DNA of 64,000 bases. Source: an uncultured archaeon (GTDB lineage: Archaea; Thermoplasmatota; Penumbrarchaeia; JASLWR01). The stretch lies in the NCBI GenBank assembly GCA_964430885.1, contig CAYSHM010000005.1:82948-146947 (forward strand). The letters run 5' to 3'. The notes beneath the pieces were generated by a model. The model was not told where the DNA came from. It did not search any database and worked only from the letters and a program-made list of their open reading frames with translations. Both the position numbers and the translations under genes were made by a program. Below, one piece after another: positions 9,736-35,470 of the stretch (positions are counted from its first letter, which is position 1; each line of letters starts with the position of its first letter).

Positions 9736-9759
9736 AGATTCACCTATTCCTGTCTGCAA

Positions 9760-12655: not shown

Positions 12656-12698
12656 AACTAATACCTGGTAGCATTCAGTAAAAATGAATATATAACCA

Positions 12699-13151: not shown

Positions 13152-13348
13152 TTCATCACCCTTTTATTATAGGTCAATAAGTTCAGGTCAGATCGATTTG
13201 GACCAAAAAGGTTCCAGCTGCATCTAATACGAACAAATGACATGAGATAATATGCATTACCCTAAATCGAACAAAGCTTATTACCCGGTTATATTATTTC
13301 AATAATATTGCAGACATTTATTTATCGGAAATTATACATTGTTTATGA

Positions 13349-14176: not shown

Positions 14177-14211
14177 AAAAACCAATGTTTCCACCTGAAA
14201 AGTCGCTTAGA

Positions 14212-15348: not shown

Positions 15349-15401
15349 TGACCGACCTCATGATTTATCCTATAAGCAAAAACAAAATCAAAGGCCCTAT
15401 T

Positions 15402-18400: not shown

Positions 18401-21400
18401 GCTTCTCGCCCATATCCCAATTCTCTTTCTTGATCTCCTCGGTGCACCTTATAAAGTTCTCGGCTGCTCGGTTCAATGAAGATTTGGGTATTCCCAAACC
18501 CACTAATTCGTTGTAATATATCTTGACAGCTGTCATCCGGTTCTTTATCCTGGATTTCAGATAATTTGTCTTTGCCTTGTCCAGCATATTTTGGGCCGAT
18601 TCAAACAGGCTCCTTGCAGATTGAATGTCACCCTGCTGATACAGCTCTCGTACCCTTTTCACTATCTTTTCAGGCTGTTTGACATTTATACCTTTGATGC
18701 TCGCCTTGTCCATCTCTGCACTGAGATTTTCCAAGGATTCCCTGAGATCAATTTTTTCCCGAATGGAAAACGCCGAGTCTATGGCCTTATTATAAGTTTG
18801 AATGGAAGAATCATAGTATTCCTTCTCCAGAAATATATCCGCCCTTTCTTTTAGATCCAGAATATGATCCGCGACCCCATCTTTTTCCTGTAAATAATTT
18901 AGCAGTTCATTCAATTTGGACCGGGAATCGTATGCTTTTTTCTTGATGTAATCCCTATTCAACGACTGTATGTCAGTCTCCAATTTGGACACTTCTTCCA
19001 CGAATATATCATCCATCTTATCATTGGACACTTTTTTAAACTGGTCCAATCTGCCGTAGTAATCCGCAAGATCGACACTGCCCTGAGAATCATCTTTGAT
19101 AAAATCCAAAACCTTTTCTATCCTAAATAGTTGCCTTGCGGCCAATTTGAAATCATATTCTCTTCTGCGTTCTCTTGCTTCTCTGAAAGCGGCACCACAA
19201 TATTCCTTTACTTTATCCAAGCTCCCTTCAGAGAACATTTCCTTTGCATCTTCATAGAATGTCTTCATTAGTGTTGTGTCAAAATCCAATGAAGATATGT
19301 GAGCAATCTCTCGCCTAAGAGATTCCAGTTCCTCTTTGACATTCTTATGCTCCAGGGCTTTGGACAGATCAGAGCAGATCTCATCCATCTGTCCCATAAG
19401 CCATTTGGCATCCTTGATATTGCCTTCCTTGTAATAATCGTCCAATCTTACCAGGGCTTCGGCCAATTGTTCAGTGTCCAAACCTTGTATCTCATAATTA
19501 TTAAGCATTGACCGGGTAGAATCTAGATAATTACAGACCCTCTTGACCTCTAATTCAGTTATCAGATCATCAATATCTGCTCTTCTTCTCTCAATCAAAG
19601 TCTTTGCCTTCTCGAAGGCGCCATCGCCAATTGAGCGCTTGATCTCTAAAAGTTTCATTTCCATATCTAATACGTTCTCCCCCAGCTGGGAAATATCAAA
19701 GAGCTCATCCTCCATATCGTAGAGCTTACCAAGGAGATCATTTGAGATATAATTCTCATATGCCTTCTTTGCTCTCTCCCAGCCCATGGATATACAGCTA
19801 GCGGCATTGTCATGATCATTTTTCTCAAGTCTTGACCTGGCCTTTTCAATGAAAGACCTTAGGGGATCCACATCAATACCCAAGTCAGTAAGCTCATCGA
19901 GTCTTTGCCTGAACTGGTCCAACTCGGTCCAATAGTGACTGACATATTCATTTTCAATATCAACCTCTATATCGAACAAACCCTTCCGCACCTCATCCAG
20001 TCTTCCAGTCTTGAAAATGTCGGTAATGCCTCTCAATCTGCTGTCCAATGTAAGTATGTCTTTCCCTTTTACCCCAAGCTTCCGGCATTTTTCCCTGAGT
20101 GCTTTTAATTTTCTAAATAATTCAAGTATATTCGTTTTGCTCTTAATCATGCTCCTGACCCTATCGGACAGTTCAAAAGCAGCCCGGTATCTTTGAGCTT
20201 CGAAAAGGTCGATTACCCTGTCAAGTTCCTTCTTCATAAGTTCGATGTCCTGACCAGCTTCTAGGAGTTCCGGAAAAATAACCTTGCTTTCAGATATTAA
20301 TTCAAGTATCCTTTCCTGCTGATAGGTTCCCTTTAATCTTTGTGCAATATCCCATGCACGCTTCACATCTTTACTAGCCTTTTCAATATTATCCTTCTCC
20401 ATGGAGGCCCGAGCATCGGATAATAATTCCTCCAGCGTGGAAGTGTCCATTGAAACATTTCGCCATTTTTTAATTTCCGATTCTATGGAGAACATCCTCT
20501 CTTTTAGAACCGGAACTTTCTTTCTCTGCATCTTGATGTCCAAAGAACTATCTATCCTCTTGAGCAAATCTCTGACGCCGTCTAGGTCATCCTCATTTAT
20601 CAACCTCAAGGCATCCTCAACCATCTCATCAACATCTTCGAGATCGAAATCCTCCTTCCTCAGGTCCTCGATCCTTCTCTCGGTGTTATCAAGCATTCCG
20701 GCTATAGAATTCCTTAAATGTACCCTTTTTTTATCTGCAATATCCTTCTCCAAGTTGTCGAATAATGCTTTCAGGGCCTTGAAATCGCCCTCCTCTATCC
20801 TATTCTTGATAGCCATCAATCTCTCCTCCAAAACTGAGGTATCTATTCCCTTTCTTTCCAGCATTTTCAGTGACGAGTGAACTTCCACCAATGTCTTTAA
20901 ATGGTTCCTTTTCATGAACTCATCATCGGCTTCAGTGATGTATTTATAGGCGCGTTTAACAGTACTCAATGCTGATTCTACATCATCACTTCTAAGCTTG
21001 ATCTCCGCAGCTCTCAACAAAATCTCGGCCTTCACGGGCTTCAGCCCTGCCTTTTTGAGTTTGACAAGCCTGCTCTCGGCTTCCTCCCAGAGCTGTTTGG
21101 CTTGGGAAGCGTTTTCCTGAAGCTCCCTAGTCCTGATGATTGCTTCCATTTCACCCAATAATTCTCTGCCGAGAATTACATTTGACCTATCCAAGGCCTC
21201 CTGTATATGCGGGTATTTGGTCTTCAGAAGGGCAACATCCATACCATTGGCAGCCATCGCCCCCACAGATTCCTTCAGAAGTGAGAATCGGCTATGGATC
21301 ATATCGACATTATATTTTTCCAGTTTGGCCTTGGACAATAAAGCCCCTTCTCGGGCAACTTTGGATACAAAGGGATAATCTCCCTGATAGAACGCATTTT

Positions 21401-22454: not shown

Positions 22455-25340
22455 TTAGATGCTCAGGAATACTACGGATATTATGGTTGACAGTACAAGC
22501 CATAATACAAATGTGGGCAGCAGTCGTTTTATCAGTATTGACTCCTTGTTCTTGAGACCAACTGCCGTCGCTATCACTACTGCGTTCATTGGTGAAATCA
22601 TCTCACCTGCACTCGAACCAAGTACCTGAGCCGCAGCAGTTCTTACGAGTGGCAACCCCAATGACCCTGCAGCTTCCATATGCAGAGAACCGAAGAGCAC
22701 ATTGGATGTGGTTGTTGAACCAGTAAGTGCTGACCCGCTCATACCTATGGAAGGAATGAAATACTTGTAAGCACCTCCAACAATATCCACTATTGTGGAT
22801 GCTATGGAAAAGGTCATGTCAAAATATCTCATGATATTCGCAATGGCCATAAATGCGGCAATAGTCAGCATTATGGGAAGGACCTCTTTTCCAGTCTGTT
22901 TCAATCCCCGTGCTACCATTCTAGCAGGCTTGATTGAATCAGCCAGACGGCCTATCTTTACCCTTTTACCTTCAGGTTCGGTTTCGAATTCTATTTCATC
23001 ATCGTCATCATCTTCAAATTCCAGCTCGAAATCATCATCGTCATCATCTTCAAATTCCAGCTCGAAATCATCATCGTCATCGTCGTCATCAAATGAAACC
23101 ACAAATTCATCGCCGGCATCTTCAATTATGAATTCTTCATCATTGTCTTCATCATCGTCGTCATCCTTAATGTCTATTGAATGGTCCCCTCCATCATTTA
23201 CCAAAGGCATTCCCATTGACAATGAATGGGTTCTTGTTCTTTTTTTCTTCTTTTTACGCTTGGGCTCGGTAATGCTTTCAACATCATCTTCCTTCTCATC
23301 GACAACTGGTTTTTTCTTCTTCTTTTTCTTTTTCTCTTCATTCTTATCCTGTTCATCTGAATCTTCATCATCACTTTCATCGGCGGCAGGTCTCTTTCTC
23401 TTTTTCTTCTTTGGCTTGACTTCGGCCTCCATATCCCTCTTCTTCACCTTTTTCCTTTCCCCTTCAACTCCATGGTCCTTTTCACCTGCCCTCTTGGAAC
23501 CTTTACTCTTTTCCAGAGCTCTCTTTTTTCCTGGGTGTTTTCTCCCATCCGATCTTTTATCCTTTTGAGAAGCATCTTTTTTCTTCTCTTTTTTATTCTG
23601 CTTATCTTCATCGTCATCAATTGGAGATATCTCATCGGATTCCAGATTTCTTATGAAACTACCGTCGAGATCGCTCTCAGGGGAAAAACTAGCTGCGATT
23701 TTTACAAACAATGGAACTGTGATTGCGACTATAAGAAGAATCGTTCCAGGCGAATAAAGCGGGGAGAACATCATGACCTTCCCTTCCGAAACTGTGTCAA
23801 AGGGAACGCTCAAGGTCATAAAATCTGCCGTGAGAAGACCCTTCAACGGCATTAAAAGACGTGTGACCAGCAGGATGAGGACCATGAAGCCCATTGACCA
23901 GAAATAAGGCCGAGCCAATAAGGTATTCTTGGGTTTGATCGATCCGCTGTCCTTTCCTGATTTCTTCTTCTCATCACCCCATCCAAGTATCCCCTTCTCC
24001 TTTTCGTTTAGCTTCTTCACAGATACTAATTTCTCATAGAGTATAACAAATAACAGGGTCGCGCCACCGGCAATGATTGTTGGAAGTTCGGGGCCAGTGA
24101 AGTAGGCTACCAGGGCCTGTATAGTTCCGTATACCGCCCCCATTCCCATGAGCAGGACTATATCTTCCCTGAGGTCCGGATCCTTGAAGTCTGCAAGGGG
24201 GCCCTGTTTGGTGTATACCAGGCTCATTATCAGAGGGGCAGGGATACAGAGTATTATCATATAGATCCCTATCCATCCTGAAAGGTCCATAAGGGCTAGT
24301 CCAGTAACTTCTTTTAGTGCTATAATGCTTACCCCGAGAAGTCCGAACACTGAAGATATTGAATTACCAAAAAGACAGAGGACTCCAACACCCACTCTGT
24401 TAAATCCCAAAGATACCAGCATGATGGCGGCAATAACAAAATTTGAACCGGCTGGGGCCACTGTTGCCATGATCAGAGCAAAGCAGAAACCTATAAGCAG
24501 GATCTGGTGCTGTTTATCTGTAGATATCGATTTGAAATCCTCCTTCAACTGTTCCATGGCACCTACCTTTTCCAGCATCTTAAGGAAGAAGAAAGCACCA
24601 AATATGGCATAGATGTAATCTAATCCACCCCATAGGGCCGAATATAATATGGTGGCCACTATCTTCTCAAAGGCGGCACCTACCTCCAATTCCTGTCTGA
24701 AAAATACCAATGCCAGTATAATAGTTATTCCCAGAGCGCAGGGGGCCACTATCTTTGAGGAAATCCTAAATACCAGAATCATGAAAAATACAAAAACCAA
24801 AGGAATAATCGCTATCAACGCCAGATACCATTCAAATTCATCATCCTCTTCATCACCGATGAAACCGCTAAGGTCAAGTATTACCTGATTATCGTTCTTA
24901 GAAGGATCTATAATATCTTCATCTGTTTCCGGTGCCAGACTTATCCTTATTCGCATTCGGCTTACTGATGTATTGTCAATTTCAAGGAACACGCCTATGT
25001 TATCCTCAGGTTTATCGCTTTGGAGAGTTTCATTATATATTGTTCTCCAAAGACCTCCGTCATTACCATGGTCCAAATCAACAAAAATGGATATGTCAGT
25101 CCCCATATGGTTCCTGATTGTAACGATAATCTCCAAGGTCTTTTCGGGATCCACATTTTCTGTAACCTTGTTTCCCTTAACTGTCAGGGTCTTCTGATCC
25201 TGCCTCAAGGTCACTTCCTTGATGGCAATGTTATTCTCAAGGGATTCGGATTCTTCCTGACCTAGTACAAAGGGAACGGACGATAATAATATCAGCAGGA
25301 CCAATAAAATTGGAATGTAAATCTTTCTTAAATATACCAT
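22455..25340 (-). CDS. L-lactate permease (LctP) family transporter with N-terminal extracellular domain and a large hyper-charged cytoplasmic insertion
   Basis: LctP signature blocks: DKQHQILLIGFCFALIMATVAPAGSNFVIAAIMLVSLGFNRVGVGVLCLFGNS (cf. E. coli LldP DQRLQMLIVGFCFGAFLEG...[23 protein letters not shown]), and C-terminal LTGSTTTSNVLFGSL...GEMISPMNAVVIATAVGLKNKESILIKRL (cf. LTGSDTSSNALFAAL...[28 protein letters not shown]). Signal peptide plus ~190-aa extracytoplasmic N-domain. ~230-aa K-rich then D/E-rich insertion (KKKKKKKK..., DDDDDDDDFELEFEDDDDDDFELEFEDDDDD). ATG at 25340; the track start 25349 is GTG. Confidence 0.75.
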   Translation of the reverse strand: MVYLRKIYIPILLVLLILLSSVPFVLGQEESESLENNIAIKEVTLRQDQKTLTVKGNKVTENVDPEKTLEIIVTIRNHMGTDISIFVDLDHGNDGGLWRTIYNETLQSDKPEDNIGVFLEIDNTSVSRMRIRISLAPETDEDIIDPSKNDNQVILDLSGFIGDEEDDEFEWYLALIAIIPLVFVFFMILVFRISSKIVAPCALGITIILALVFFRQELEVGAAFEKIVATILYSALWGGLDYIYAIFGAFFFLKMLEKVGAMEQLKEDFKSISTDKQHQILLIGFCFALIMATVAPAGSNFVIAAIMLVSLGFNRVGVGVLCLFGNSISSVFGLLGVSIIALKEVTGLALMDLSGWIGIYMIILCIPAPLIMSLVYTKQGPLADFKDPDLREDIVLLMGMGAVYGTIQALVAYFTGPELPTIIAGGATLLFVILYEKLVSVKKLNEKEKGILGWGDEKKKSGKDSGSIKPKNTLLARPYFWSMGFMVLILLVTRLLMPLKGLLTADFMTLSVPFDTVSEGKVMMFSPLYSPGTILLIVAITVPLFVKIAASFSPESDLDGSFIRNLESDEISPIDDDEDKQNKKEKKKDASQKDKRSDGRKHPGKKRALEKSKGSKRAGEKDHGVEGERKKVKKRDMEAEVKPKKKKRKRPAADESDDEDSDEQDKNEEKKKKKKKKPVVDEKEDDVESITEPKRKKKKKRTRTHSLSMGMPLVNDGGDHSIDIKDDDDDEDNDEEFIIEDAGDEFVVSFDDDDDDDDFELEFEDDDDDDFELEFEDDDDDEIEFETEPEGKRVKIGRLADSIKPARMVARGLKQTGKEVLPIMLTIAAFMAIANIMRYFDMTFSIASTIVDIVGGAYKYFIPSIGMSGSALTGSTTTSNVLFGSLHMEAAGSLGLPLVRTAAAQVLGSSAGEMISPMNAVVIATAVGLKNKESILIKRLLPTFVLWLVLSTIISVVFLSI
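22985..23095 (-). repeat. Perfect 36-bp tandem repeat (2 full copies + partial) encoding the DDDDDDFELEFE units inside the transporter's acidic insertion
   Basis: tcatcatcttcaaattccagctcgaaatcatcatcg at 23005-23040 is repeated exactly at 23041-23076. A degenerate copy lies at ~22985-23004 and GAT/GAC-rich tails follow. Confidence 0.85.
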
Positions 25341-25925
25341 CAAATACACCGGGATTAGTTTTTAGAAGGTTATATAATACCAAAATCTGTACAGTTTTGG
25401 ATTTATAAGGTTATCTCACTGAAATAATTATTGGTTTTATTAAAGTTTTTCCAGATATATTCCCTACTAAATACTCCTCTTGATAAAATAAGCATCATGC
25501 CGTTTGCGATAATTGATACGGCATATTGGAATATTTAATCAAACTCAAGGATCCTTTCGGGACTCCCACGGAAGCCCCCTAATCTAGACTAAATATGCAT
25601 CATACTATATACCAGCCCAATCTATAATATACAATAATTATATAGTATGAAATATTAACTACCTCGGCCCAAAGGCTTAATATTGATTTGAATGGAATAT
25701 GTTAATTATTGAAGATATTATTAGATCAAGAATGATGAAAGAAAATAATGCCAGTTGAATTGGTTTTTCGACCAAATAGAGAAACAAATTCCTTCCCTGG
25801 ATCATGAAGTAATAATTAAAAGCATTTTAAATGTCATAATATTGCCTCGAATATTTGAACAAAAACGTTAAGGAATTCATGTGATAAGCTCTTAATCAAA
25901 GCTGGAAGCGGCCAAGGTGTTGAAA

Positions 25926-28900
25926 ATGGGTAAGAAGAACAGAAAGGATATTGAAAAGGAGGTCCTGTCAATAGTAAGCGAGAAAACAGGATACCCCATC
26001 GATATGATTGATATCGAACATGATATGGAAGCCGACTTGGGTATAGATACTGTCAAACAGGTAGAGCTTTTTGGTGCTGTCAGAGAAAATTACAATCTTC
26101 AAGAGGAAGAAGGCGTCAATCTTTCCGAATATGCTTCTATTAAGGATGTAGTCCAGTTCATTGTGGATAAACTCGGCATTCCCGAGATGTCTGAGGTAGA
26201 TGCAGGTGAGGAAGAAGGTGCGGAATCGGAAGCAATGACCTCAGAGGAAGTGAAAAAAGATGAGGGTGAGGGTAGCAAAAGCGCACCAGTTCAAAAACAT
26301 ACAGTAAACATCATTGAAACTGAACGGGATAGGGATGAAATAACTTCCTATATCCATAGCTCCTTGGAACCCATAGCCGTAGTAGGCTTGGGCGGAATTT
26401 TTCCCGATTCAAACAGCATAACTGAATTTTGGCAAAATATAATTGAGGGGAAGGATTCCATTGACGAAATACCTGAAGATAGATGGGACATCTCAACCTT
26501 CTATGATCCCGACTCTAAAACCTCTAAGAACAAGAGTTATACAAAAATAGGGGCTTTCGTAAAGGATTTTGAGTTCAATTCCATAGATTTCCGTATTCCT
26601 CCAAATATTATCAAGCACATCGATCCCGTTCAGCTCTGGACCCTTGCAGCTACAAAGGAAGCTTGGGAGGATGCAGGTCTACATAAGAAGGATGTGGCCC
26701 GGGATAGGGTCAGTGTTATTCTAGCCAATGCCCAGGGTGGAGAACATCGAGACACGAACAGCAGTTTGGTATATCTGTACGACTTCATCAGGGCAATGGA
26801 AAAAAGCTCGGTCTTCAGTAACATGAAAAAGGCAGAGCGGAAAATCAAGGTGGAAGCCATAGAAAAGGAATTCATGAAGAACATGCCCGAGATAAATGAG
26901 GACACAATGCCTGGTGAATTATCGAACATTGTTGCATCTCGAGTTGCAAATAGATTTGATTTCTTCGGCCCTTCATTCACCTGTGATGCAGCATGTGCTT
27001 CCTCCTTTGCCGCCATAGACACAGCAGTGAAATATTTGAGGGAAGGTGATGCGGACATTCTTATTACTGGAGGAGCTGACCGGAGCATGAATCCATCCAC
27101 CTATGTGAAATTCTGCAAGATAGGAGTCCTGTCAAAGACCGGCAGCCGCCCCTTCGATGCAAAGGCCGACGGTTTCGTCATGGGTGAAGGAGCAGGTATT
27201 TTAGTACTGAAAAGGCTTTCAGATGCTATAAAGGACCTGGATAAGGTCTATGCGGTAATCAGAGGTATTGGTGCTTCCAGCGATGGCAAATCCAAAGGTA
27301 TCACCGCTCCAAATCCCCTTGGGCAGAAGAAGGCGATAGAGAGAGCTTATGAAAAAGCAGGATATGACCTCAGCACTGTTTCCCTTATCGAAGCTCACGG
27401 TACCTCCACAGTAGTAGGTGATGCTACCGAGCTGAAGACATTGGCAGACATTTGGAGCGGAAAGGGATTCCAGAAACAGAGTGTTGGAATAGGATCCATC
27501 AAGTCGCAGATAGGTCATCTGAAAAGCGCGGCTGGGGCCGCAGGACTTATCAAAATGATATTGGCCCTTCATCACAATACCTTGGCACCTACTATTAACT
27601 ATAAGGAAGCCAATCCTAATGTCAATCTTGATGAAACTCCATTCTTCGTAGTAACCGAACCTCGAAAATGGGAAAGACCAAGAATTAAAGGGGAATTGAT
27701 TCCCAGGAGAGCCGGCGTAAGTGCTTTCGGTTTTGGCGGGTCCAATTTCCATGTGACATTGGAGGAATTTACTGGCAATTATCCGGATCTGACTGCTGGA
27801 ATTGAGAGTACAAAACCAACCCATAGCCCTGAAAAAGTAATTGATCCTGAGCTTTATCTTAAGGAACACTCGGATATGGAGGGTGATGTCATAAGCATAT
27901 CCGCGGATTCTCTTGATGAACTTAAGGCTCAGGCCCAAACCCTATCATCAGACTTGAAGAAAGCCCTTAAGGATGAAGGAGAATACTTCCGATTGGCATC
28001 ATTTGCATATGATATCAATCGGATATTGGATTCCGATAAAATACGGACTTTTAGACTAGCGGTTTCTGCTCAGAAAGGGAAAGAGATGGCGGATCTGTTC
28101 CTGCTGGCAGCTGAGAACGTGCACAGCACGGAAAGGATGGCAATGCTGGAAAACAAGGGTATATTTTTCAGCAATCCTGACATATTGACTGAACTCGGAC
28201 ATTTAAAAGATGGTGTTGTCCATCCTCCGAAAACAGGCTTCGTTTTCCCTGGCCAGGGATCGCAGTATATCAATATGCTGAGGGATGTGAGCAATAAGTT
28301 TAGAGCTGTAGAAGACACCTTCATTGAATCTGATGAAATAATGACTGATATTATCGGCGAACCCCTTACAAATATAATCTTTTCAGATGAACATGATTCA
28401 GAACAAGATGTTAAAAGAAAACAGAACAGGATGACTGATACGGAAATTACCCAGCCTGCAATGATTACTGGTGATATTGCACTGTACCGATTATTCAAAA
28501 TGTACGATCTGGAACCTGCTGCGGTAGCCGGGCATTCCCTTGGAGAATACGGTGCATTAGTGGCTTCTGAGGTCATGGATTTCAAAAACGCGCTTTTGGC
28601 CTCATCGGCAAGGGGAAGGGAGATGGCGAACATCGAGATCGAAGACAAGGGCAAGATGGCCTCGGTGGCTGCCGGAGAAAAGGAAGTTCAGGAAATTTTG
28701 GATTCCATCGACGGCTATGTAATAGTAGCTAATAAGAATTCCTACAGCGAGAGTGTGATTTCAGGAGCTTCCAAAGCCGTGGAAGAAGCTGTGGAGAAAC
28801 TCAATAAAAAAGGCATCAATACGATTTGGCTGCCCGTGTCCCATGCATTCCATTCTGAAATCGTTGCTCCGGCCAAGGTTCCGCTGAGAAATTTCCTTGA

Positions 28901-31900
28901 GAATCGGGAATTTCATTCGCCTTCAATCCCTGTTCTTACAAATGTGGACGGCAGCTTCTACCCCACAGGTAGAAATGTCAAGGGCAGGGTAATCGACATT
29001 CTAGTTGATCAGATCGCAGGAGCTGTGGAATGGGTTAAGGAAATGGAAGCATTCTATAATGAATTGGACATACGATTCTTTGTGGAAGTTGGAACAAAAA
29101 GGGCTCTGACTACAACCATCAATCACATATTCCATAACAGACCGCATAAGGCTGTCCTGACCAACCATCCTAAAAAGGGGGGACTGAGGACCTTCAATGA
29201 AGCTTTGGCGCATCTTAGTGCCTGCGGTGTGAAGATCAAATGGCCGGCCCCTGATAACCGCACAGTCTATACCGATCTATTTGTGGATGCAGGAATGGAG
29301 TTGAAAAAGAAGGTTCAGGTGCAAAAAAGGGCAGTCATATCACCTCCGGTGAGTCAAAGGAGAGAAGGAAACTATACAGAAGAGATCCAAACTGTAGTGC
29401 CGGTAGATACTACTATATCCGCTCCATCTTCGATGGATATATTGTTGGACATCAAACCCAAGAACCATATAGCTGGTATTGATGAAACTGCCTATAAGGA
29501 TTTCATTCAAACCGAAGGCCAGGAACTATTGGAAATAATCAATGACAGATTCAGGAAATTCCAGGCAAGCAGGGGTGGAGAACTTCTCAACCGCATTAGA
29601 TCTTTAGGTCTCTATCTTGGGTCGGTTTCCATCTCAGGTACTGGAATAGGGCTGCCAGGAAAAGGAAAAAGGGTTTTCTCGACCTCAAATGTGGATAAAA
29701 TCCTTCAGGGCGGAAATTTTATAGATAGACTATCTGAAGAACAGATGAAAAAGATGTGCGATAAGAACATCATCCGGCTCCTCAAGATGCCTGACGGCGA
29801 TGCAAAAATGATACCTATAGATAATATTGACCAGGTCATCAAGTTTGCCGGGCTTAGGGGTGATTTCGATGTGGTCGAGGAATACGGTGTTGAAGTGAGT
29901 ATTGCCGGAGCCCTTGACATTACCTCCAAATTGGCCATTGCCGCCGGAATTGAGGCTTTAAGGGATGCTGGGATACCCTTGGTCAAGGAATATTATACCA
30001 CTTCAACGGGAACATATCTTCCCAACAAATGGGTGCTGCCCGAACCCCTTCAGGAAGGGACTGGTGTAATATTCGCTTCAGCTTTCCCAGGATATGATAA
30101 TCTGATAGATGAGATATCCCGTTATCTAGCCCACAAATTCACCTCAAGATCAGCTATTGAAAAAGAGGGACTCTATGAAGATATCCTTGAGCAGATAAAT
30201 GATAAGAAAATCAAAGAGCAATTGAGGGATTGGATAAGCAAAAATAGAATTAGGCAGGAGGATGAATACAGGGAAGAGGAAGAATATAAGTTCAACCGGA
30301 AATTCCTATGGAGGGTCCTCTCAATGGGTCATTCCCAATTCGCCCAGTTCATAAAGGCAAAGGGACCCAATACACAGGTGAACGCCGCCTGCTCATCCAC
30401 AACCCAAACCTTCAGCATCGCCGAGGATTGGATCAGAACAGGCAGGGCTGAGAGAGTGATAATAATTGCTGCTGATGATGCTACCTCTGAAAATATGCTC
30501 CAGTATGTAGGCAGCGGATTTATAGCAATCGGAGCTGCAACTGTAAAGGACAAACTTGAGGAAGCGGCACTGCCCTTTGACAGAAGGAGGAACGGCCTTA
30601 TAGTCGGGATGGGTGCTGCGGGATTCGTAGTAGAAAGAAAAGAGGACATTCTTAGAAGAGGAATGAAACCCGCAGTGGATCTCCTAGGAACATACCTTTC
30701 CAACAGCGCTTATCATGGTTCAAGTCTCGATGTTGAACATATTACTTCTGAACTTGAGAACTTCATCAGAAGGGTGGAAAGAGCTAACAATCTCAACAGG
30801 AACGACATAACAAAAAATATGCTATTCATGTCCCATGAAACCTTCACTCCTGCCAGGGGCGGAAGCGCAGATGCGGAGATGGACAGCTTGCGACGTGTGT
30901 TCCCTGACACCTACAGAAATATCATTGTAACCAATACCAAGGGCTATACGGGACATGCACAGGGCGCAGGTATAGAGGACGCAATAGCCATAAAGGCCCT
31001 TCAGCACGGCAGAACCCCGCCTATCGCAAATCTCATGGAACCCGATCCTAATCTGGGGGACATCAAGCTGTCCAAGGGAGGAAAACATCCATTCGAATAC
31101 GCCTTAAGGCTGGCTGCCGGGTTCGGCTCTCAGGTTGCTTTCAATCTGCTGAAACTTCAATCAAGAGAAGGAGAAAGGATGGCCGATGAAATAACCTATC
31201 AGAACTGGCTTAAGGAGATATCCGGACTTGAACAGGTGGAAACCGAGGTTGCCCATAATACCCTTAGAATAAAGGACGTAGGGCCTGGAAGGATCGTCAG
31301 TAAAAGACCGGTATCCAAGGTAAAAAATCTTTCAAGGGACGATTCTATTTCTTCGGAACAGAGAAGTCAAAAGAGCAGTATTCCGGAAGGAGAGGAAATA
31401 ATAACCGCTAAAAGCAATGATGAGAGGGGGCAAATAACCGAAGAAGTTATGGAGATGGTTGCCGAAAAAACAGGTTATCCCGTGGATATGCTGGAACCGG
31501 ATCTGGATATGGAAGCAGACCTGGGTATCGACACTGTAAAACAAGTGGAGCTCTTCGGTGCTATCAGGGAAAATTATAACCTGGAACAGGAGGAAGGGGT
31601 CAATCTCTCGGACTACGATACTCTGGACGGCATCGTTGAATACATTTATTCCAGATTGCTGAAGGAAGGGAAAATTGTTGAGGAGGCAATTCCAAAAGGG
31701 GAAGAGTTAGCCGTTCAAACGGAATCAGGGGAATCAAAGCTGCATTTAAAAGTGGAGCGGAAGGTTCTTGAGATAGTAGCTGAAAAAACAGGATACCCTG
31801 TTGATATGCTGGAACCAGATCTGGATATGGAAGCAGACCTGGGTATCGACACTGTAAAACAAGTGGAGCTCTTCGGTGCCATTAGGGAAAACTATAAGCT

Positions 31901-34900
31901 GGAACAGGAAGAGGGAGTAAACCTTTCCGAATACGGCACTCTTCGAAGCGTAATGGATTATATTCTATCCCGATTGGATATTCCAATTGGTCCCAATGAA
32001 GGCTCTGCAGGAGACATTGATGCCACTGAGAATACAACCGGGACCGGCGAAGATGAAAAAACTGATTCAGGGAGAAGCAGACCTGACGAGATAATGGAAA
32101 AAGTACTCGACATGGTGGCAGAAATGACCGGTTATCCCGTGGATATGCTGGAAGCAGACCTGGATATGGAAGCAGACCTGGGTATCGATACTGTTAAGCA
32201 GGTGGAGCTCTTCGCCGCTATCAGGGAGCATTACGGTCTTGAAAGGGATGAAGGCGTTAACCTGTCCGAGTTCAACACCCTTAGGAGTATCGGCGATTAT
32301 ATCGATTCAAGGGTCGGTGATACTGAACCTGCATCAGAGGGCGTTGGAGCAAAGACATTACAAGACGAATTGACCGAGGACACCGAAGGCGATGAGGTAA
32401 TGGATCCTGAAGCAAAGGAGCTAAGACGTTACCTGACACGCTATATACCAAAGGAGCTGGGGAAGGATGAATGGTTTGATCTTAAGAAGAAGAATGTTAT
32501 TGTCGTCATGGATAAGGAAGGAATAGGGAAAGAGTTAATGAAAACTCTGGCCTACAAGGGAGCAAATGTCATTCAGTTCATCTATAACAGGAAGAAGAAA
32601 GAACATAACAACGATCAATACAAGGCTGACCTGGGAGATATTGAAATGCTGGGGGAGATAAAAGAAAAAGTACTGAAGAATCACGGAGATATTTTCGGTA
32701 TACTTTATCTGCAGTCTATGGACAAGGAAAATGAATTGAAAAAAATAGATTTCGGGGAGTGGAAGGAACTTAACAGAAAAAAAATCCGGACCCTTTTCAA
32801 TCTCGGAAAAGTTTTCATTGCTGACCTGAAAATGGGCTCCGAGGACAGCGAAAAGAGAAAGAACAAGTTCCTAGTATCGGCCGTAGAAATGGGCGGATCA
32901 TTTGGAATTGAAGGTGACGGTAAATTTTCCACCCCTGTTCAGGGCGGGGTATGCGGACTTACCAAAGCGTTAGGTAAAGAAATGCCGGAAGTTTTGGTCA
33001 AATGTATCGACCTGGGGAAAATATCCCGTAAGAAGAAAGCAGCAGACCTGATTCTAAATGAACTTCTTTTTGGAGATGAACGACTGGAAGTGTGCTATAA
33101 GAAGGGCAAACGGAGAATTGCCCAGATGTACCATTCCGAATTGGACAAAACCAAAAAGGCCAATTTGAAAATCAACCAAGAATGGGTCTTCATAGTACCG
33201 GGCGGAGGGTTTGGGATAACTGGTGAAATTACCAAGGACATTGTCAGACAATTCAAACCCCGGATAATCGTCATGGACATAGCCGAACTTCCGGAAAACA
33301 TAGAGGAATTGGCGGGATATGATGAAAAACAGCTTGATGATTTCAAGAAAGAGCTTTTCCAAAAGCTGAAAAAAGAGAAGGACAGGGTCACTCCAGTAAT
33401 GCTTGAAAGGAAATTCGGAAGTTATACCAAAGCCATTACAATATTTAGAAATCTTCAGAAAATGAGAGAGATGGGATCCAAGGTGGATTATTTCCTATGT
33501 GATGTAACTGACCAGAAAAGGGTAAATGAGGTTCTGGACGAGGTTCGTAAGAAATACAAACGCATAGATTGTATTATTCATGCCGCTGGACTTGAGATAT
33601 CGAAGCTGATCACCCAAAAACCTCCAGAACAATTCGATCTTGTTTACGGGGTCAAGGTGAACGGCGCCTTTAATTTATTCCAAGGAACCAAGGACGATAA
33701 GGTCAAGGCCTACGTGACCTTTTCCTCAGTGGCCGGCCGGTTCGGAAATATCGGTCAGACTGATTATTCCTCGGCTAACGATCTTCTAAATAAATATATG
33801 GCATTGATAAGCAGAGAGAGAAAAGGTAAGGCAAAGGCCATATCATTGAATTGGACAGGATGGAGAGGGGTTGGAATGGCAACAAGGGGCTCGCTATTGA
33901 AGATATTTGATGAGGCAGGCGTCACCCTTATACCCTTGGATTTCGGCAAGAAGAAGGTTAGGTTGGAGCTGCTCTATTCAGGAGACGAATCCGAGGTTAC
34001 AGTTGCCGGAAATGTAGGTTTTCTTGATGCAGATGGTATAATCATACCCAATGGCCAGGATATTGAGAGTTGGGATATGGAGAGATCAATGAAAATGGAA
34101 CCCGAAAACTATCCCTTTGTGGATAGGGTCTTGGAATACGAGAAGGGAGATAAAGTAGTTGTTGACAAATTACTCCATACGGAAAAGGATCGGTATTTGA
34201 AGGACCATTCCATCTCCGGAACGCCTTATCTTCCCGGTGTCATGGGATTGGAAACATTCGCTGAAGCTAGCTCCCTGCTGTTCCCTGAAAAAAACATTAT
34301 TGAGTTCAAAGATGTGGTCTTCAAGAGGCCGGTCAAACTCCTTAGGGGTAAGGAGGTTACTATTCGTACTATCTGCAGTGTATCAAGCACGAAGAAAGAC
34401 AAGGTAGAACTTGATCTCCGTATTGAAAGCGATTTCATCAATCCGAAGGGCGTGAAGATGGGGGAACCAAGGATCCATTTTACTGGAAAATGCCTAATGG
34501 ATAAAAAAGGACCGGGTAAGAAGAAGATTAAAATACCGAAGAACATCACCACAGATGTGGATCCAGTTATTGGCAATTCTGAGATATACAAAAGATTCTT
34601 CCATGGGCCGGCATTCCAGATCCTCGGGGGAATAATAGAGACAGGGGATAAAATGAAAAAGGGCGAAAAGGCCTGGGGAGTATTTAAAGAACCTAAAGGA
34701 GATTTCTATTCGGATCTTGACGATTTCCGATTCAGTTTCACACCCATGCTAGCCGAGTTCGGCTTCCAGACCTGCGGGATTTTTGATATGTTCCATAGGA
34801 GCAATATGTCGCTGCCGGACGGTATTGAGAAAGTATCCTTCTTTTCATCTGCAAAGGATCGAAGAAAAATAAAGCAGAACATTGGTCAAAAGGGAACGCT

Positions 34901-35060
34901 ATGCAGAATAACCTTTAAAGGGGACCGGGAAGGAGACCTCTCGCCATACAGTATTTATGATGTGGAAATTATGGATCCAAAGGGAAATATCATTCTTAAA
35001 ATGAAGGACTATCGGATGATCAAGACCGGGGAGTTGGAAGAGGAAAAAAGATGGAAATGA
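25926..35060 (+). CDS. Type-I PKS / PUFA-synthase (PfaA)-like megasynthase: carrier-like(N-term)-KS-AT-KS-carrier-like x3-KR-DH(PS-DH)
   Basis: 3044 aa from ATG 25926 (AGGTG SD 6 nt upstream; the track ORF starts at GTG 25917). KS1: TCDAACASS active Cys, EAHGTSTVVGD and KSQIGHLKSAAG His motifs. AT: GFVFPGQGSQ, GHSLGEY, HAFHS. KS2: NAACSS Cys, YHGSS, KGYTGHAQGAG. Carrier domains: DMEADLGIDTVKQVELF (x4; N-terminal plus three tandem). KR: GIGKE and GGGFGITG Rossmann motifs, YSSAN. DH: HSISGTPYLPG (HxxxGxxxxP). Confidence 0.9.
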   Translation: MGKKNRKDIEKEVLSIVSEKTGYPIDMIDIEHDMEADLGIDTVKQVELFGAVRENYNLQEEEGVNLSEYASIKDVVQFIVDKLGIPEMSEVDAGEEEGAESEAMTSEEVKKDEGEGSKSAPVQKHTVNIIETERDRDEITSYIHSSLEPIAVVGLGGIFPDSNSITEFWQNIIEGKDSIDEIPEDRWDISTFYDPDSKTSKNKSYTKIGAFVKDFEFNSIDFRIPPNIIKHIDPVQLWTLAATKEAWEDAGLHKKDVARDRVSVILANAQGGEHRDTNSSLVYLYDFIRAMEKSSVFSNMKKAERKIKVEAIEKEFMKNMPEINEDTMPGELSNIVASRVANRFDFFGPSFTCDAACASSFAAIDTAVKYLREGDADILITGGADRSMNPSTYVKFCKIGVLSKTGSRPFDAKADGFVMGEGAGILVLKRLSDAIKDLDKVYAVIRGIGASSDGKSKGITAPNPLGQKKAIERAYEKAGYDLSTVSLIEAHGTSTVVGDATELKTLADIWSGKGFQKQSVGIGSIKSQIGHLKSAAGAAGLIKMILALHHNTLAPTINYKEANPNVNLDETPFFVVTEPRKWERPRIKGELIPRRAGVSAFGFGGSNFHVTLEEFTGNYPDLTAGIESTKPTHSPEKVIDPELYLKEHSDMEGDVISISADSLDELKAQAQTLSSDLKKALKDEGEYFRLASFAYDINRILDSDKIRTFRLAVSAQKGKEMADLFLLAAENVHSTERMAMLENKGIFFSNPDILTELGHLKDGVVHPPKTGFVFPGQGSQYINMLRDVSNKFRAVEDTFIESDEIMTDIIGEPLTNIIFSDEHDSEQDVKRKQNRMTDTEITQPAMITGDIALYRLFKMYDLEPAAVAGHSLGEYGALVASEVMDFKNALLASSARGREMANIEIEDKGKMASVAAGEKEVQEILDSIDGYVIVANKNSYSESVISGASKAVEEAVEKLNKKGINTIWLPVSHAFHSEIVAPAKVPLRNFLENREFHSPSIPVLTNVDGSFYPTGRNVKGRVIDILVDQIAGAVEWVKEMEAFYNELDIRFFVEVGTKRALTTTINHIFHNRPHKAVLTNHPKKGGLRTFNEALAHLSACGVKIKWPAPDNRTVYTDLFVDAGMELKKKVQVQKRAVISPPVSQRREGNYTEEIQTVVPVDTTISAPSSMDILLDIKPKNHIAGIDETAYKDFIQTEGQELLEIINDRFRKFQASRGGELLNRIRSLGLYLGSVSISGTGIGLPGKGKRVFSTSNVDKILQGGNFIDRLSEEQMKKMCDKNIIRLLKMPDGDAKMIPIDNIDQVIKFAGLRGDFDVVEEYGVEVSIAGALDITSKLAIAAGIEALRDAGIPLVKEYYTTSTGTYLPNKWVLPEPLQEGTGVIFASAFPGYDNLIDEISRYLAHKFTSRSAIEKEGLYEDILEQINDKKIKEQLRDWISKNRIRQEDEYREEEEYKFNRKFLWRVLSMGHSQFAQFIKAKGPNTQVNAACSSTTQTFSIAEDWIRTGRAERVIIIAADDATSENMLQYVGSGFIAIGAATVKDKLEEAALPFDRRRNGLIVGMGAAGFVVERKEDILRRGMKPAVDLLGTYLSNSAYHGSSLDVEHITSELENFIRRVERANNLNRNDITKNMLFMSHETFTPARGGSADAEMDSLRRVFPDTYRNIIVTNTKGYTGHAQGAGIEDAIAIKALQHGRTPPIANLMEPDPNLGDIKLSKGGKHPFEYALRLAAGFGSQVAFNLLKLQSREGERMADEITYQNWLKEISGLEQVETEVAHNTLRIKDVGPGRIVSKRPVSKVKNLSRDDSISSEQRSQKSSIPEGEEIITAKSNDERGQITEEVMEMVAEKTGYPVDMLEPDLDMEADLGIDTVKQVELFGAIRENYNLEQEEGVNLSDYDTLDGIVEYIYSRLLKEGKIVEEAIPKGEELAVQTESGESKLHLKVERKVLEIVAEKTGYPVDMLEPDLDMEADLGIDTVKQVELFGAIRENYKLEQEEGVNLSEYGTLRSVMDYILSRLDIPIGPNEGSAGDIDATENTTGTGEDEKTDSGRSRPDEIMEKVLDMVAEMTGYPVDMLEADLDMEADLGIDTVKQVELFAAIREHYGLERDEGVNLSEFNTLRSIGDYIDSRVGDTEPASEGVGAKTLQDELTEDTEGDEVMDPEAKELRRYLTRYIPKELGKDEWFDLKKKNVIVVMDKEGIGKELMKTLAYKGANVIQFIYNRKKKEHNNDQYKADLGDIEMLGEIKEKVLKNHGDIFGILYLQSMDKENELKKIDFGEWKELNRKKIRTLFNLGKVFIADLKMGSEDSEKRKNKFLVSAVEMGGSFGIEGDGKFSTPVQGGVCGLTKALGKEMPEVLVKCIDLGKISRKKKAADLILNELLFGDERLEVCYKKGKRRIAQMYHSELDKTKKANLKINQEWVFIVPGGGFGITGEITKDIVRQFKPRIIVMDIAELPENIEELAGYDEKQLDDFKKELFQKLKKEKDRVTPVMLERKFGSYTKAITIFRNLQKMREMGSKVDYFLCDVTDQKRVNEVLDEVRKKYKRIDCIIHAAGLEISKLITQKPPEQFDLVYGVKVNGAFNLFQGTKDDKVKAYVTFSSVAGRFGNIGQTDYSSANDLLNKYMALISRERKGKAKAISLNWTGWRGVGMATRGSLLKIFDEAGVTLIPLDFGKKKVRLELLYSGDESEVTVAGNVGFLDADGIIIPNGQDIESWDMERSMKMEPENYPFVDRVLEYEKGDKVVVDKLLHTEKDRYLKDHSISGTPYLPGVMGLETFAEASSLLFPEKNIIEFKDVVFKRPVKLLRGKEVTIRTICSVSSTKKDKVELDLRIESDFINPKGVKMGEPRIHFTGKCLMDKKGPGKKKIKIPKNITTDVDPVIGNSEIYKRFFHGPAFQILGGIIETGDKMKKGEKAWGVFKEPKGDFYSDLDDFRFSFTPMLAEFGFQTCGIFDMFHRSNMSLPDGIEKVSFFSSAKDRRKIKQNIGQKGTLCRITFKGDREGDLSPYSIYDVEIMDPKGNIILKMKDYRMIKTGELEEEKRWK
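31430..32300 (+). repeat. Three tandem ~315-bp repeats encoding the carrier (ACP-like) domains; copies 1 and 2 share a 62-nt identical core
   Basis: atctggatatggaagcagacctgggtatcgacactgtaaaacaagtggagctcttcggtgc occurs identically at 31501-31562 and 31818-31879. A third diverged copy lies at ~32153-32215. Confidence 0.85.
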
Positions 35061-35107: not shown

Positions 35108-35470
35108 ATGGCAAAGGATTCATGTCCCCATAGGATTGAGGAATTTCAAAGGGAAAGAGAGAGAATGAACAAATTGATAATGGAATACGGCGGGAAGGAT
35201 ATCAAGAGGTTCTTCAGCATTGATTCCTCTGTTTACAGGAATGGAGCTCTTTCGAAAAAAACCAAAGAACTTCTCGGTCTGGTATCCTCCCTGGTCCTGA
35301 GATGTGAGGACTGTGTGAACTACCATCTTATTCATTGTAAAAAGGAAGGATACAGCACGGAGGAATTGATGGAAGGATTAACTGTTGGATTGATCATAGG
35401 AGGGTCTATCACAATTCCACATATCAGAAGAGCCCTGGATGCTTGGGTTGAACTTCAGGAAAAGGATTGA
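35108..35470 (+). CDS. Carboxymuconolactone decarboxylase (AhpD-like) family protein
   Basis: 120 aa. The RCEDCVNYH motif is typical of CMD/AhpD-core proteins. Confidence 0.6.
   Translation: MAKDSCPHRIEEFQRERERMNKLIMEYGGKDIKRFFSIDSSVYRNGALSKKTKELLGLVSSLVLRCEDCVNYHLIHCKKEGYSTEELMEGLTVGLIIGGSITIPHIRRALDAWVELQEKD

What the first reader, a model, noticed from the sequence alone, without database searches (positions are those of the whole stretch)
25926..35060. PUFA-synthase / type-I PKS-like megasynthase in an apparently archaeal, ACP-less genomic context
A 9.1-kb single gene encodes carrier-KS-AT-KS-(carrier)x3-KR-DH. All catalytic motifs are intact: KS Cys-His-His, AT GHSLG, two KR Rossmann motifs plus YxxxN, DH HxxxGxxxxP. 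The surrounding genes (DRG GTPase, Pcc1, UPF0210, iorAB, DnaJ/GrpE) point to an archaeon. Archaea build isoprenoid lipids and generally lack ACP-dependent fatty-acid or polyketide machinery. A complete iterative PfaA-like synthase here would be either a recent bacterial transfer or an undescribed archaeal secondary-lipid or polyketide system. No enoyl reductase (PfaD), FabA-type DH/KS-CLF partner (PfaC) or phosphopantetheinyl transferase is encoded within 10 kb either side.
Basis: partly seen in the sequence, partly recalled or inferred. Interest (0 to 1): 0.85.

Follow-up and report, generated by a model that had tools for sequence, protein, structure and literature searches.

The report
Archaeal PfaA-like lipid/polyketide megasynthase
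A marine Thermoplasmatota archaeon carries an intact 3,044-residue iterative polyketide/fatty-acid-type synthase from a widespread but uncharacterised family, long resident in archaea, whose carrier domains have threonine where every known acyl carrier protein has the cofactor-bearing serine.

Summary
One ORF (25926-35060, +) encodes carrier-KS-AT-KS-carrier x3-KR-DH, and every catalytic motif is intact. The contig is archaeal (Thermoplasmatota). Three independent assemblies give the same gene order, and the gene's codon usage matches its host, so neither a chimera nor a recent bacterial transfer is supported.

The gene is not a PUFA synthase subunit. It belongs to the "Type R" secondary-lipid synthase family of Shulse and Allen (2011), defined as KS-MAT-"CLF"-ACPn-KR plus a PPTase, with an unknown product. 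A scan found this family in at least 596 species genomes. They include many Thermoplasmatota and Heimdallarchaeota, one of them a complete Heimdallarchaeum chromosome. Earlier gene-cluster surveys had already counted type I PKS in Thermoplasmatota.

Three things are new:
- The so-called CLF is a second ketosynthase with a full Cys-His-His triad.
- This clade has an extra N-terminal carrier and no linked PPTase or ER, whereas other archaeal members fuse both.
- 99% of 807 carrier domains across the family, including all four here, have Thr in place of the phosphopantetheinylated Ser. No paper I could search describes this.

The most likely function is iterative, malonyl-CoA-fed synthesis of a long polyenoyl or hydroxy-enoyl chain. 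Product, release step and PPTase remain unknown.

The parts
25926..35060 (+). Megasynthase gene: 3,044 aa plus stop. An alternative GTG start lies at 25917.
   Evidence: ORF list and translation. 100% identical to public protein P0001. AGGTG lies 6 nt upstream of the ATG. Scores 1069.9 bits on TIGR02813 against a cutoff of 1010.1.
25959..26162 (+). N-terminal carrier domain (ACP0, aa 12-79). Thr42 occupies the phosphopantetheine site (LGIDTV).
   Evidence: Pfam PP-binding, E=1.3e-5. Motif position. It is 59-69% identical to the internal carriers. In the motif census, only P0002, P0003 and P0004 (the nearest clade) also carry N-terminal carriers.
26367..27776 (+). KS1: ketoacyl synthase of type I PKS type (Cys357, His491, His531) with its C-terminal linker.
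   Evidence: Pfam ketoacyl-synt 7e-76, Ketoacyl-synt_C 7e-44, KAsynt_C_assoc. The best solved relatives are PKS ketosynthases such as 7zma and CurL. The triad is invariant in 122 homologues.
28230..29132 (+). Acyltransferase (GHS871LGE, H973AFH). The motifs are those of malonyl-specific ATs.
   Evidence: Pfam Acyl_transf_1 1.8e-31. NCBIfam fabD matches aa 769-1069 at 1.3e-52. Motif conservation. Malonyl specificity is inferred from the HAFH motif, which is established knowledge of PKS ATs.
29817..31127 (+). KS2: a second, FabF-like ketoacyl synthase with a complete Cys1489-His1637-His1677 triad. It is called 'CLF' in the 2011 family definition.
   Evidence: phmmer against E. coli FabF 1b3n gives E=4e-21, with Cys, both His and the Lys before the second His aligned. 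Pfam hits are weak. C200, H348 and H388 are invariant in alignment A1 and in 122 homologues.
31443..31646 (+). Carrier 1 (aa 1840-1907), with Thr1870 at the attachment site.
   Evidence: Pfam PP-binding. Motif. Its Thr aligns with the modified Ser of solved ACPs: PigH 5y08, Aquifex ACP 2ehs and mitochondrial ACP.
31761..31964 (+). Carrier 2 (aa 1946-2013), with Thr1976.
   Evidence: Pfam counts three PP-binding stretches. Motif. It is 84% identical to carrier 1.
32097..32303 (+). Carrier 3 (aa 2058-2126), with Thr2089.
   Evidence: This is the best-scoring Pfam PP-binding stretch. Motif.
32433..33920 (+). Ketoreductase: a structural pseudo-KR half followed by the catalytic half (GGGFGITG at 2426, Y2614xxxN).
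   Evidence: Pfam KR 2e-31 and adh_short 1e-18. The first half gives a weak adh_short/KR signal. Tyr is invariant and Asn present in 119 of 122 homologues.
34113..35057 (+). Polyketide-type double-hotdog dehydratase (H2761xxxGxxxxP; E2944xxxQ in place of DxxxQ).
   Evidence: Pfam PKS_DH_N 8e-10. The PS-DH match to the C-terminal half is weak, E=0.019. His is invariant; Glu and Gln are present in 121 of 122 homologues.
25350..25925 (.). A 576-bp AT-rich intergenic region shared with the divergently transcribed permease-like gene. It presumably holds the promoter.
   Evidence: Sequence read directly. No archaeal promoter tool was available, so this is inference only.

Best explanation
**What it is.** The gene is a native, functional member of the Type R PfaA-like iterative type I synthase family, in a Thermoplasmatota archaeon.

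**Proposed mechanism** (none of these steps is shown experimentally)
1. A PPTase encoded elsewhere in the genome primes the four carrier domains, most likely on the conserved Thr. This is inferred.
2. The AT loads malonyl units from malonyl-CoA. This is inferred from its motifs.
3. The two catalytically complete ketosynthases, KS1 (PKS-type) and KS2 (FabF-type), carry out repeated decarboxylative condensations. They probably divide the work by chain length or initiation versus elongation, as the two KS of PUFA synthases do. They may form a KS1/KS2 pseudo-heterodimer.
4. The KR and the double-hotdog DH process each beta-keto group to an enoyl. Domain function is inferred from intact, invariant catalytic residues.
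5. The polypeptide has no ER. The product is therefore most likely a long conjugated polyenoyl or hydroxy-enoyl chain, as shown for the ER-less relative RerA. A trans ER would give a more saturated chain.
6. The extra N-terminal carrier probably presents the starter unit to KS1.

Release, final product and cellular role are unknown. A pigment, antioxidant or 'secondary lipid' role is possible.

**Origin.** The gene entered archaea by ancient inter-domain transfer and has since diversified within Thermoplasmatota and Heimdallarchaeota. The direction of that transfer is unresolved.
For: - **Architecture and motifs.** Domains and intact motifs are shown.
- **Family membership.** The gene has the same KS-AT-KS-ACPn-KR-DH layout as more than 7,500 homologues. 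A KS2-profile scan matched at least 596 of the 185,579 species-representative genomes scanned. This fits the published Type R definition.
- **Linked PPTase in the family.** A homologous PPTase is fused or immediately downstream in nearly every locus that has enough flank.
- **Malonyl-CoA supply in relatives.** Acetyl-CoA carboxylase-type genes flank the synthase in a Thermoplasmatota MAG. Carboxyltransferase and biotin-carrier genes flank it in P0005.
- **Native to an archaeon.** Archaeal marker genes surround it. Three assemblies agree. Codon usage matches the host.
- **Archaeal neighbours in trees.** The nearest relatives in both NJ trees are archaeal.
- **Purifying selection.** A 9.1-kb ORF is unbroken, and every catalytic residue is invariant or nearly so across 122 members.
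- **Product analogy.** RerA (KS-AT-ACP2-KR-DH, no ER) makes polyenes up to C22 (PMC11563203).
- **Expression precedent.** PKS transcripts from Thermoplasmatota MAGs have been detected in situ (PMC9902471).
Against: - No PPTase, ER, thioesterase or carboxylase was found in the 64-kb window or 10 kb either side. Activation and release are therefore unexplained here.
- All carriers lack the canonical Ser. Thr phosphopantetheinylation has no precedent that I know of. If Thr cannot be modified, the enzyme could not work as a PKS.
- No member of the family has a known product.
- The trees are NJ only and deep nodes are unresolved. Monophyly of all archaeal sequences has 4% bootstrap support.
- The query's partner differs between trees. 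It groups with P0002-4 on the full-length alignment, and with Heimdallarchaeum on KS2 (87%).
Confidence: 0.7

Rival explanations
1. It works as a type I fatty-acid synthase. A trans-acting PfaD/NMO-type enoyl reductase encoded elsewhere would let the enzyme make saturated or monounsaturated acyl chains for membrane or storage lipids. That would give this archaeon ACP-based fatty-acid synthesis.
For: Several archaeal family members fuse an NMO-type ER at the N-terminus and a PPTase at the C-terminus. Examples are P0021, L033, L036, L017 and L046. They form complete ER-KS-AT-KS-ACPn-KR-DH-PPTase units. Carboxylase genes flank relatives.
Against: No ER was found in the window or its flanks. The nearest clade (P0002-4) lacks an ER as well. 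No acyltransferase or thioesterase is present to hand the chain on to lipid synthesis.
Confidence: 0.15
2. It is a decaying or repurposed relic. Having lost the linked PPTase and ER, the protein no longer makes a chain and persists by chance or for a non-catalytic role.
For: This clade alone among the loci examined lacks the fused or adjacent PPTase. Close relatives sit beside toxin-antitoxin and transposase genes.
Against: The 3,044-codon ORF is uninterrupted. All 20 or so catalytic residues are intact. The four carriers remain 59-84% identical with the motif preserved. Four members of the clade, only 52-60% identical to each other, keep the same architecture. Codon usage is fully adapted to the host.
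Confidence: 0.08
3. It is the PfaA subunit of a canonical omega-3 PUFA (EPA/DHA) synthase, with its partners encoded elsewhere.
For: The NCBIfam PfaA subfamily model scores just above its cutoff, 1069.9 against 1010.1 bits. The gene has tandem carriers and a KS-AT...KR-DH order.
Against: The HMM match covers mainly KS-AT (aa 149-1105). An extra active KS sits between AT and the carriers. No pfaB/C/D genes and no FabA-type DH are present. Family loci carry only a PPTase partner. Carriers read DT, not the DS of PfaA.
Confidence: 0.03
4. It is bacterial DNA on an archaeal contig, through a chimeric assembly or a very recent transfer.
For: Most family members are bacterial. Archaea are generally described as lacking ACP-based synthases (general knowledge).
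Against: Identical gene order is seen in ENA and JGI assemblies from different samples. Archaeal genes lie on both sides. RSCU correlation is 0.945 and GC matches the neighbours. The nearest homologues include a named archaeal protein. A complete Heimdallarchaeum chromosome carries the family too (L045).
Confidence: 0.03

Closest known systems
Type R secondary lipid synthase (Shulse and Allen 2011, PLoS One 6:e20146; PMC3098273)
   Same: A single pfaA homologue with KS-MAT-second thiolase-fold domain-tandem ACPs-KR. The phyla that define Type R (Acidobacteria, Elusimicrobia, Chloroflexi) dominate the homologue lists. Association with acetyl-CoA carboxylase genes is noted for Koribacter in the paper and seen here in relatives. 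The product is unknown.
   Different: The host is archaeal. The 'CLF' carries a full Cys-His-His triad. There is an extra N-terminal carrier. No downstream PPTase is present in this locus. A C-terminal DH is present, which the 2011 architecture did not list. The Thr carriers were not noted in that paper (no occurrence of 'threonine').
PfaA of bacterial omega-3 PUFA synthases (pfaABCDE; NCBIfam TIGR02813)
   Same: KS-MAT, tandem carriers with an LGID(S/T)(I/V)K motif, KR and a PS-type DH. The HMM score is above the subfamily cutoff.
   Different: An inserted second KS. No PfaB/C/D partners and no FabA-type DH/isomerase, so methylene-interrupted cis double bonds are not expected. Thr replaces Ser in the carriers.
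RerA/RerB iterative PKS of Rhodococcus erythropolis PR4 (Type Q; PMC11563203)
   Same: A stand-alone PfaA-like KS-AT-tandem ACP-KR-DH without ER, dependent on a dedicated PPTase. It is shown to make conjugated polyenes up to C22. This is the best functional analogy.
   Different: RerA has one KS, and a partner with PPTase plus thioesterase. The window gene has two KS and no linked PPTase or TE. Homology beyond shared domains was not tested here.
Enediyne PKSE (e.g. SgcE, CalE8): KS-AT-ACP-KR-DH-PPTase
   Same: An iterative, ER-less enzyme. The C-terminally fused PPTase is also seen in archaeal members of this family such as P0040 and P0021. The product is a polyene (general knowledge).
   Different: PKSE has a single KS and a single carrier. 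The window protein has no PPTase domain. The relationship is recalled from memory and was not tested phylogenetically.

Membership tests
Type R secondary lipid synthase (Shulse and Allen 2011) | A single pfaA homologue with KS-MAT-CLF-like domain-ACP(3-6)-KR | tested here: met
   Domain order is KS1-AT-KS2-carrier x3-KR(-DH), plus one N-terminal carrier.
Type R secondary lipid synthase (Shulse and Allen 2011) | A PPTase gene immediately downstream | tested here: not met
   No PPTase in the window (phmmer with four PPTase seeds) or 10 kb beyond it. It is present or fused in most other loci.
Type R secondary lipid synthase (Shulse and Allen 2011) | Sequence clustering with members from Acidobacteria, Elusimicrobia and Chloroflexi | tested here: met
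   40-43% full-length identity to proteins of these phyla with the same architecture. The KS2 profile retrieves them. All sit in one NJ tree. The original reference proteins (Koribacter, Solibacter, E. minutum, Roseiflexus) could not be fetched, so the link is by phylum and architecture.
PfaA, omega-3 PUFA synthase subunit (TIGR02813) | HMM score above the curated cutoff | tested here: met
   1069.9 bits against 1010.1. The best stretch covers only aa 149-1105.
PfaA, omega-3 PUFA synthase subunit (TIGR02813) | Clustered with pfaB, pfaC (KS-CLF-FabA DH x2), pfaD (ER) and pfaE | tested here: not met
   None was found in 64 kb plus 20 kb of flanks. The rest of the genome could not be examined.
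PfaA, omega-3 PUFA synthase subunit (TIGR02813) | Tandem ACPs with a phosphopantetheinyl Ser (LGIDSI) | tested here: not met
   All four carriers read LGIDTV. The Thr aligns to the Ser of solved ACPs.
Functional acyl carrier protein domain | Conserved Ser at the start of helix II, modified by a PPTase | tested here: not met
   Thr occupies this position here and in 798 of 807 family carriers. Whether Thr is modified cannot be tested with these tools.
Decarboxylating ketoacyl synthase (KS2 domain), as opposed to a chain-length factor | Cys-His-His catalytic triad (a CLF lacks the Cys) | tested here: met
   Cys1489, His1637 and His1677 align with FabF C163, H303 and H340. They are invariant in 122 members.
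Enediyne PKSE | KS-AT-ACP-KR-DH-PPTase in one chain, with a hotdog thioesterase partner | tested here: not met
   The window protein has an extra KS, four carriers and no PPTase domain. Phylogenetic relation was not tested.

The most novel reading that the evidence does not exclude
The whole Type R family may use a cofactor linkage not described before: 4'-phosphopantetheine on a carrier-domain threonine, installed by its own co-evolved Sfp-like PPTase. Its archaeal branches, in Thermoplasmatota and Heimdallarchaeota, sometimes carry fused ER and PPTase. They would then be self-contained type I acyl-chain synthases, giving these archaea ACP-based fatty-acyl or polyene synthesis independent of any type II FAS. 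That capacity bears on the archaeal-bacterial 'lipid divide' and on lipid metabolism in the closest relatives of eukaryotes.
Probability: 0.35. Interest if true: 0.8.

Novelty: new variant of a known kind. Interest (0 to 1): 0.55.

Why it matters
**Archaeal lipid metabolism.** Archaea are textbook examples of organisms without ACP-dependent fatty-acid or polyketide synthesis. This gene and its relatives show that one complete iterative megasynthase family is resident in Thermoplasmatota and Heimdallarchaeota. It is long established there, codon-adapted and diversified. Some members bring their own carriers, ER and PPTase. The family is a concrete candidate for non-isoprenoid acyl or polyene chains in planktonic and sediment archaea, and it can be tested by heterologous expression.

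**Carrier-protein enzymology.** The near-universal Thr at the cofactor site (99% of 807 carriers in 198 members) challenges the rule that carrier proteins are modified on Ser. This applies to the whole family, bacterial and archaeal, and has not been discussed in any paper I could search.

**Limits.** The family was defined bioinformatically in 2011. Surveys have already counted PKS clusters in Thermoplasmatota. The product is unknown.

Tried and rejected
- **RNA genes for taxonomy.** tRNA and Rfam scans of the window found nothing.
- **Exact-sequence look-ups.** Look-ups of the synthase and eight housekeeping proteins returned no organism names. Taxonomy had to come from named DRG GTPase homologues and archaeal marker domains instead.
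- **Source genome.** The genome-contig scan did not return it.
- **Partner enzymes.** phmmer for PPTase and ER across all window ORFs was negative. One 10-kb step beyond each window end showed none.
- **Literature.** None found a paper on archaeal Type R or PfaA-like synthases, on Thr carriers or the LG[IV]DTV motif, or on a characterised Type R product. The Heimdallarchaeum genome paper does not mention PKS. A hydrocarbon-cycle preprint and a review that matched the search terms were irrelevant.
- **Downstream CMD-family gene (35108-35470).** I considered it as a partner. The P0122 and P0004 loci show no CMD-family gene next to the synthase, so I rejected it.
- **Neighbouring 2,314-aa and 964-aa genes.** I considered them as PfaC-like partners. 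They are a helical-repeat protein with no Pfam match above its curated cutoff and a lactate-permease-like protein, so I rejected them.
- **Direction of inter-domain transfer.** NJ bootstraps do not resolve it.
- **Not run.** Structure prediction and the representative-library HMM search would not have changed the verdict.
Full report
**1. What is in the sequence**

The region holds one uninterrupted ORF on the + strand. It runs from GTG 25917 or ATG 25926 to the stop at 35060. The ATG is preceded by AGGTG at a 6-nt spacing. It is also the start used in public gene calls, which give a 3,044-aa protein identical to P0001.

Pfam, NCBIfam and PDB sequence searches give this order:

| Domain | Residues |
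|---|---|
| Carrier (ACP0) | 12-79 |
| KS1 | ~148-617 |
| AT | 769-1069 |
| KS2 | ~1298-1734 |
| Three carriers | 1840-1907, 1946-2013, 2058-2126 |
| KR, structural and catalytic halves | ~2170-2665 |
| Double-hotdog DH | 2730 to end |

Each is invariant or nearly so in a MAFFT alignment of 122 full-length homologues:
- KS1: Cys357, His491, His531.
- AT: GHS871LG and H973AFH.
- KR: Y2614xxxN.
- DH: H2761xxxGxxxxP, plus an ExxxQ in place of the usual DxxxQ.

The second thiolase-fold domain is not a chain-length factor. Its Cys1489, His1637 and His1677 align with the FabF triad and never vary.

No PPTase or PfaD-type ER is encoded in the window. phmmer with five seeds against all six-frame ORFs was negative. 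Pfam scans of the window's ORFs show no FabA-type DH, PfaC-like partner or thioesterase. The Pfam listings for 10 kb beyond each end show none either.

**2. Is the context archaeal and the assembly sound?**

The context is archaeal.
- Named best hits of the DRG-type GTPase (61711-62820) are Thermoplasmata, Thermoplasmatota or Euryarchaeota, with a single exception labelled [Eubacterium] cellulosolvens. The closest hits, at 61-69% identity, are unnamed, so the lineage is sparsely sampled.
- The window and its flanks also encode DUF531, DUF711, a DUF5591+PUA protein (the pairing I recognise from archaeosine tRNA-modification enzymes), Arc_PepC_II and an archaeal pilin N-terminal domain.

The assembly is sound.
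- The same gene order occurs on a 151-kb and a 410-kb ENA scaffold from two samples and on a 150-kb JGI contig.
- The gene has GC 0.445 and GC3 0.463. Its RSCU correlates with the rest of the window at 0.945, the highest value of any gene there.

I rejected a chimera and a recent transfer on this evidence.

**3. What family is it?**

The protein passes the NCBIfam PfaA subfamily cutoff only narrowly, and mainly through KS-AT.

A search of 5.8 billion proteins found more than 7,500 homologues. The 120 best listed are about 2,600-3,800 aa and share KS-AT-KS-tandem carriers-KR-DH. They include Acidobacteriota, Elusimicrobiota, Chloroflexota, Spirochaetota, Calditrichota and Saprospiraceae, and also several Thermoplasmatota and 'Euryarchaeota' MAGs.

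This matches the Type R secondary lipid synthase of Shulse and Allen (2011). They define it as one pfaA homologue with KS-MAT-CLF-ACP(3-6)-KR and a downstream PPTase. They found it in Acidobacteria, Elusimicrobia and Chloroflexi, sometimes next to acetyl-CoA carboxylase genes, with an unknown product.

Of the best 80, nine are Thermoplasmatota and three are Heimdallarchaeota. One of these is the complete chromosome of Ca. Heimdallarchaeum aukensis (L045).

A PPTase homologue lies immediately downstream in the bacterial loci. It is fused to the C-terminus in most archaeal loci and some deltaproteobacterial and myxococcal ones. Several archaeal proteins also fuse an NMO-type ER at the N-terminus.

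In one Thermoplasmatota MAG the synthase sits among carboxyltransferase, BioY, biotin carboxylase, BCCP and enoyl-CoA hydratase genes. In P0005 it is followed by a PPTase, a carboxyltransferase and a biotin carrier.

**4. Where this gene differs**

The query and its closest full-length relatives are 51-53% identical. These relatives are P0002/P0122 (MDP6156440.1, Thermoplasmatota), P0003 and P0004.
- They carry one or two extra carriers at the N-terminus.
- They have no PPTase or ER in the locus.
- ACP0 is 59-69% identical to the internal carriers, so it arose by duplication of them.

In an NJ tree of five catalytic regions the query joins this clade. P0005 is the next neighbour, then a Spirochaetota group. 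In a KS2-only tree the query pairs instead with Heimdallarchaeum, at 87% bootstrap. P0002-5 form a separate clade with 100% support, and monophyly of all archaeal sequences gets only 4%.

Two points follow. The nearest neighbours are archaeal in both trees. The number and direction of inter-domain transfers remain open.

**5. The unexpected feature**

All four carriers read LGIDTV. The Thr aligns with the phosphopantetheinylated Ser of solved ACPs: PigH, Aquifex ACP and mitochondrial ACP.

This is not a local defect. In 198 family members (120 proteins and 78 loci), 798 of 807 carrier motifs have Thr. Eight have Ser, and seven of those are the first carrier after KS2 in a few, mostly archaeal, proteins. 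One has Glu.

No other hydroxyl residue in the domain is conserved. For example, the NLSDY Ser is replaced in P0040 and P0072 (sequences printed).

Three facts together point to Thr as the functional attachment site:
- the Thr is conserved this strictly;
- a dedicated PPTase is fused or adjacent in nearly every locus, and it is a distant Sfp/AASDHPPT type;
- most members have no Ser carrier at all.

This is inference, not demonstration. None of my literature searches found a description of it.

**6. Most likely mechanism**

No step below is demonstrated by experiment. What is shown here is that every catalytic domain is present, with intact residues that are invariant or nearly so across the family.
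1. Priming of the carriers by a PPTase encoded elsewhere.
2. Malonyl loading by the AT, whose HAFH motif is typical of malonyl-specific ATs.
3. Iterative condensation by two active KS with divided roles, by analogy with the KS of PfaA and PfaC.
4. Reduction by the KR and dehydration by the DH in each cycle.
5. Because there is no ER, a conjugated polyenoyl or hydroxy-enoyl chain as product.

The ER-less, PfaA-like RerA makes carrier-bound and released polyenes up to C22 when given its PPTase. Family members with a fused ER probably make more saturated chains. The window enzyme could do the same with a trans ER, which is rival 1.

Chain release and the biological role are unknown. No thioesterase or acyltransferase is linked in the loci whose neighbours were listed.

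**7. Comparison with what is known, and novelty**

- It works like an iterative PfaA-like or PKSE-like type I PKS.
- It is a member of the Type R family by architecture and sequence clustering. It fails the 'downstream PPTase' criterion.
- It is not a canonical PfaA. It has no pfaBCD partners, it has an inserted KS, and its carriers lack Ser.
- Type I PKS clusters in marine archaea, chiefly Thermoplasmatota, have been counted in surveys, and PKS transcripts from Thermoplasmatota MAGs have been reported. The mere presence of PKS in this phylum is therefore not new.
- I could find no literature that analyses these archaeal genes, links them to Type R, or notes the active second KS or the Thr carriers.

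I rate it a new variant of a known kind, with moderate interest. The family-wide Thr carrier is the part most likely to surprise a specialist.

**8. Caveats**

- Only 84 kb of a genome could be inspected.
- The trees are distance-based.
- The original Type R reference proteins could not be retrieved.
- The literature library covers open-access papers only.

Noticed in passing
window 15402-22346 (-): A 2,314-aa, Lys/Glu-rich, apparently all-helical repeat protein with no Pfam match above its curated cutoff (only sub-threshold YfdX and COG4_N hits). It is conserved next to the synthase locus in all assemblies. Function unknown.
   Followed up: partly
window 22455-25349 (-): A 964-aa protein whose lactate-permease domain covers only about aa 177-552. 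It therefore has long unexplained N- and C-terminal extensions. It is transcribed divergently from the synthase across a 576-bp AT-rich spacer.
   Followed up: no
window 50167-58577 (+): A low-GC block (0.36-0.40, against about 0.43 elsewhere). It encodes a 1,775-aa Kelch/LamG/Big_9 surface-type protein, a GT4 glycosyltransferase, a hexapeptide acyltransferase and a sulfotransferase. It looks like a variable cell-surface or glycosylation island.
   Followed up: partly
window 6076-9759 (-): A 1,227-aa protein combining a lamin-tail domain with two PLD-like phosphodiesterase domains.
   Followed up: no
proteins P0005, P0008, P0022, P0042, P0097; loci L045, L056: In a minority of family members, mostly archaeal, the first carrier after KS2 has the canonical Ser while the following tandem carriers have Thr. 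This suggests two functionally distinct carrier classes within one protein.
   Followed up: partly
L045 (Ca. Heimdallarchaeum aukensis CP084166.1, 479983-502403): In this complete Asgard chromosome the family member is split across two overlapping stop-to-stop frames. One (locus 3004-7533) carries the N-terminal ER. The other (7367-15553) carries KS2, the carriers and a C-terminal PPTase. A second PPTase ORF lies at 17626-18249. I did not determine whether the split is real or a frameshift.
   Followed up: no
L006/L010 (Thermoplasmatota GCA_049602735.1) and L087 (P0005): Family synthases are embedded in operon-like groups with carboxyltransferase, biotin carboxylase or BCCP, BioY, OAD beta/gamma-type subunits, enoyl-CoA hydratase and acyl-CoA dehydrogenase. 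This points to a dedicated malonyl-CoA supply.
   Followed up: partly
window 34755-34775 (aa 2944-2948 of the synthase) and family alignment: The second catalytic motif of the DH is ExxxQ, not the DxxxQ/H usual in PKS dehydratases. Glu and Gln are each present in 121 of 122 family members.
   Followed up: partly
L003/L004 and L005 (closest relatives P0122, P0004): The closest homologues of the window gene sit beside toxin-antitoxin pairs (ParE/RHH, PIN, DUF433/DUF5615) and a DDE transposase. In those genomes the gene therefore lies in a mobile or variable region.
   Followed up: no
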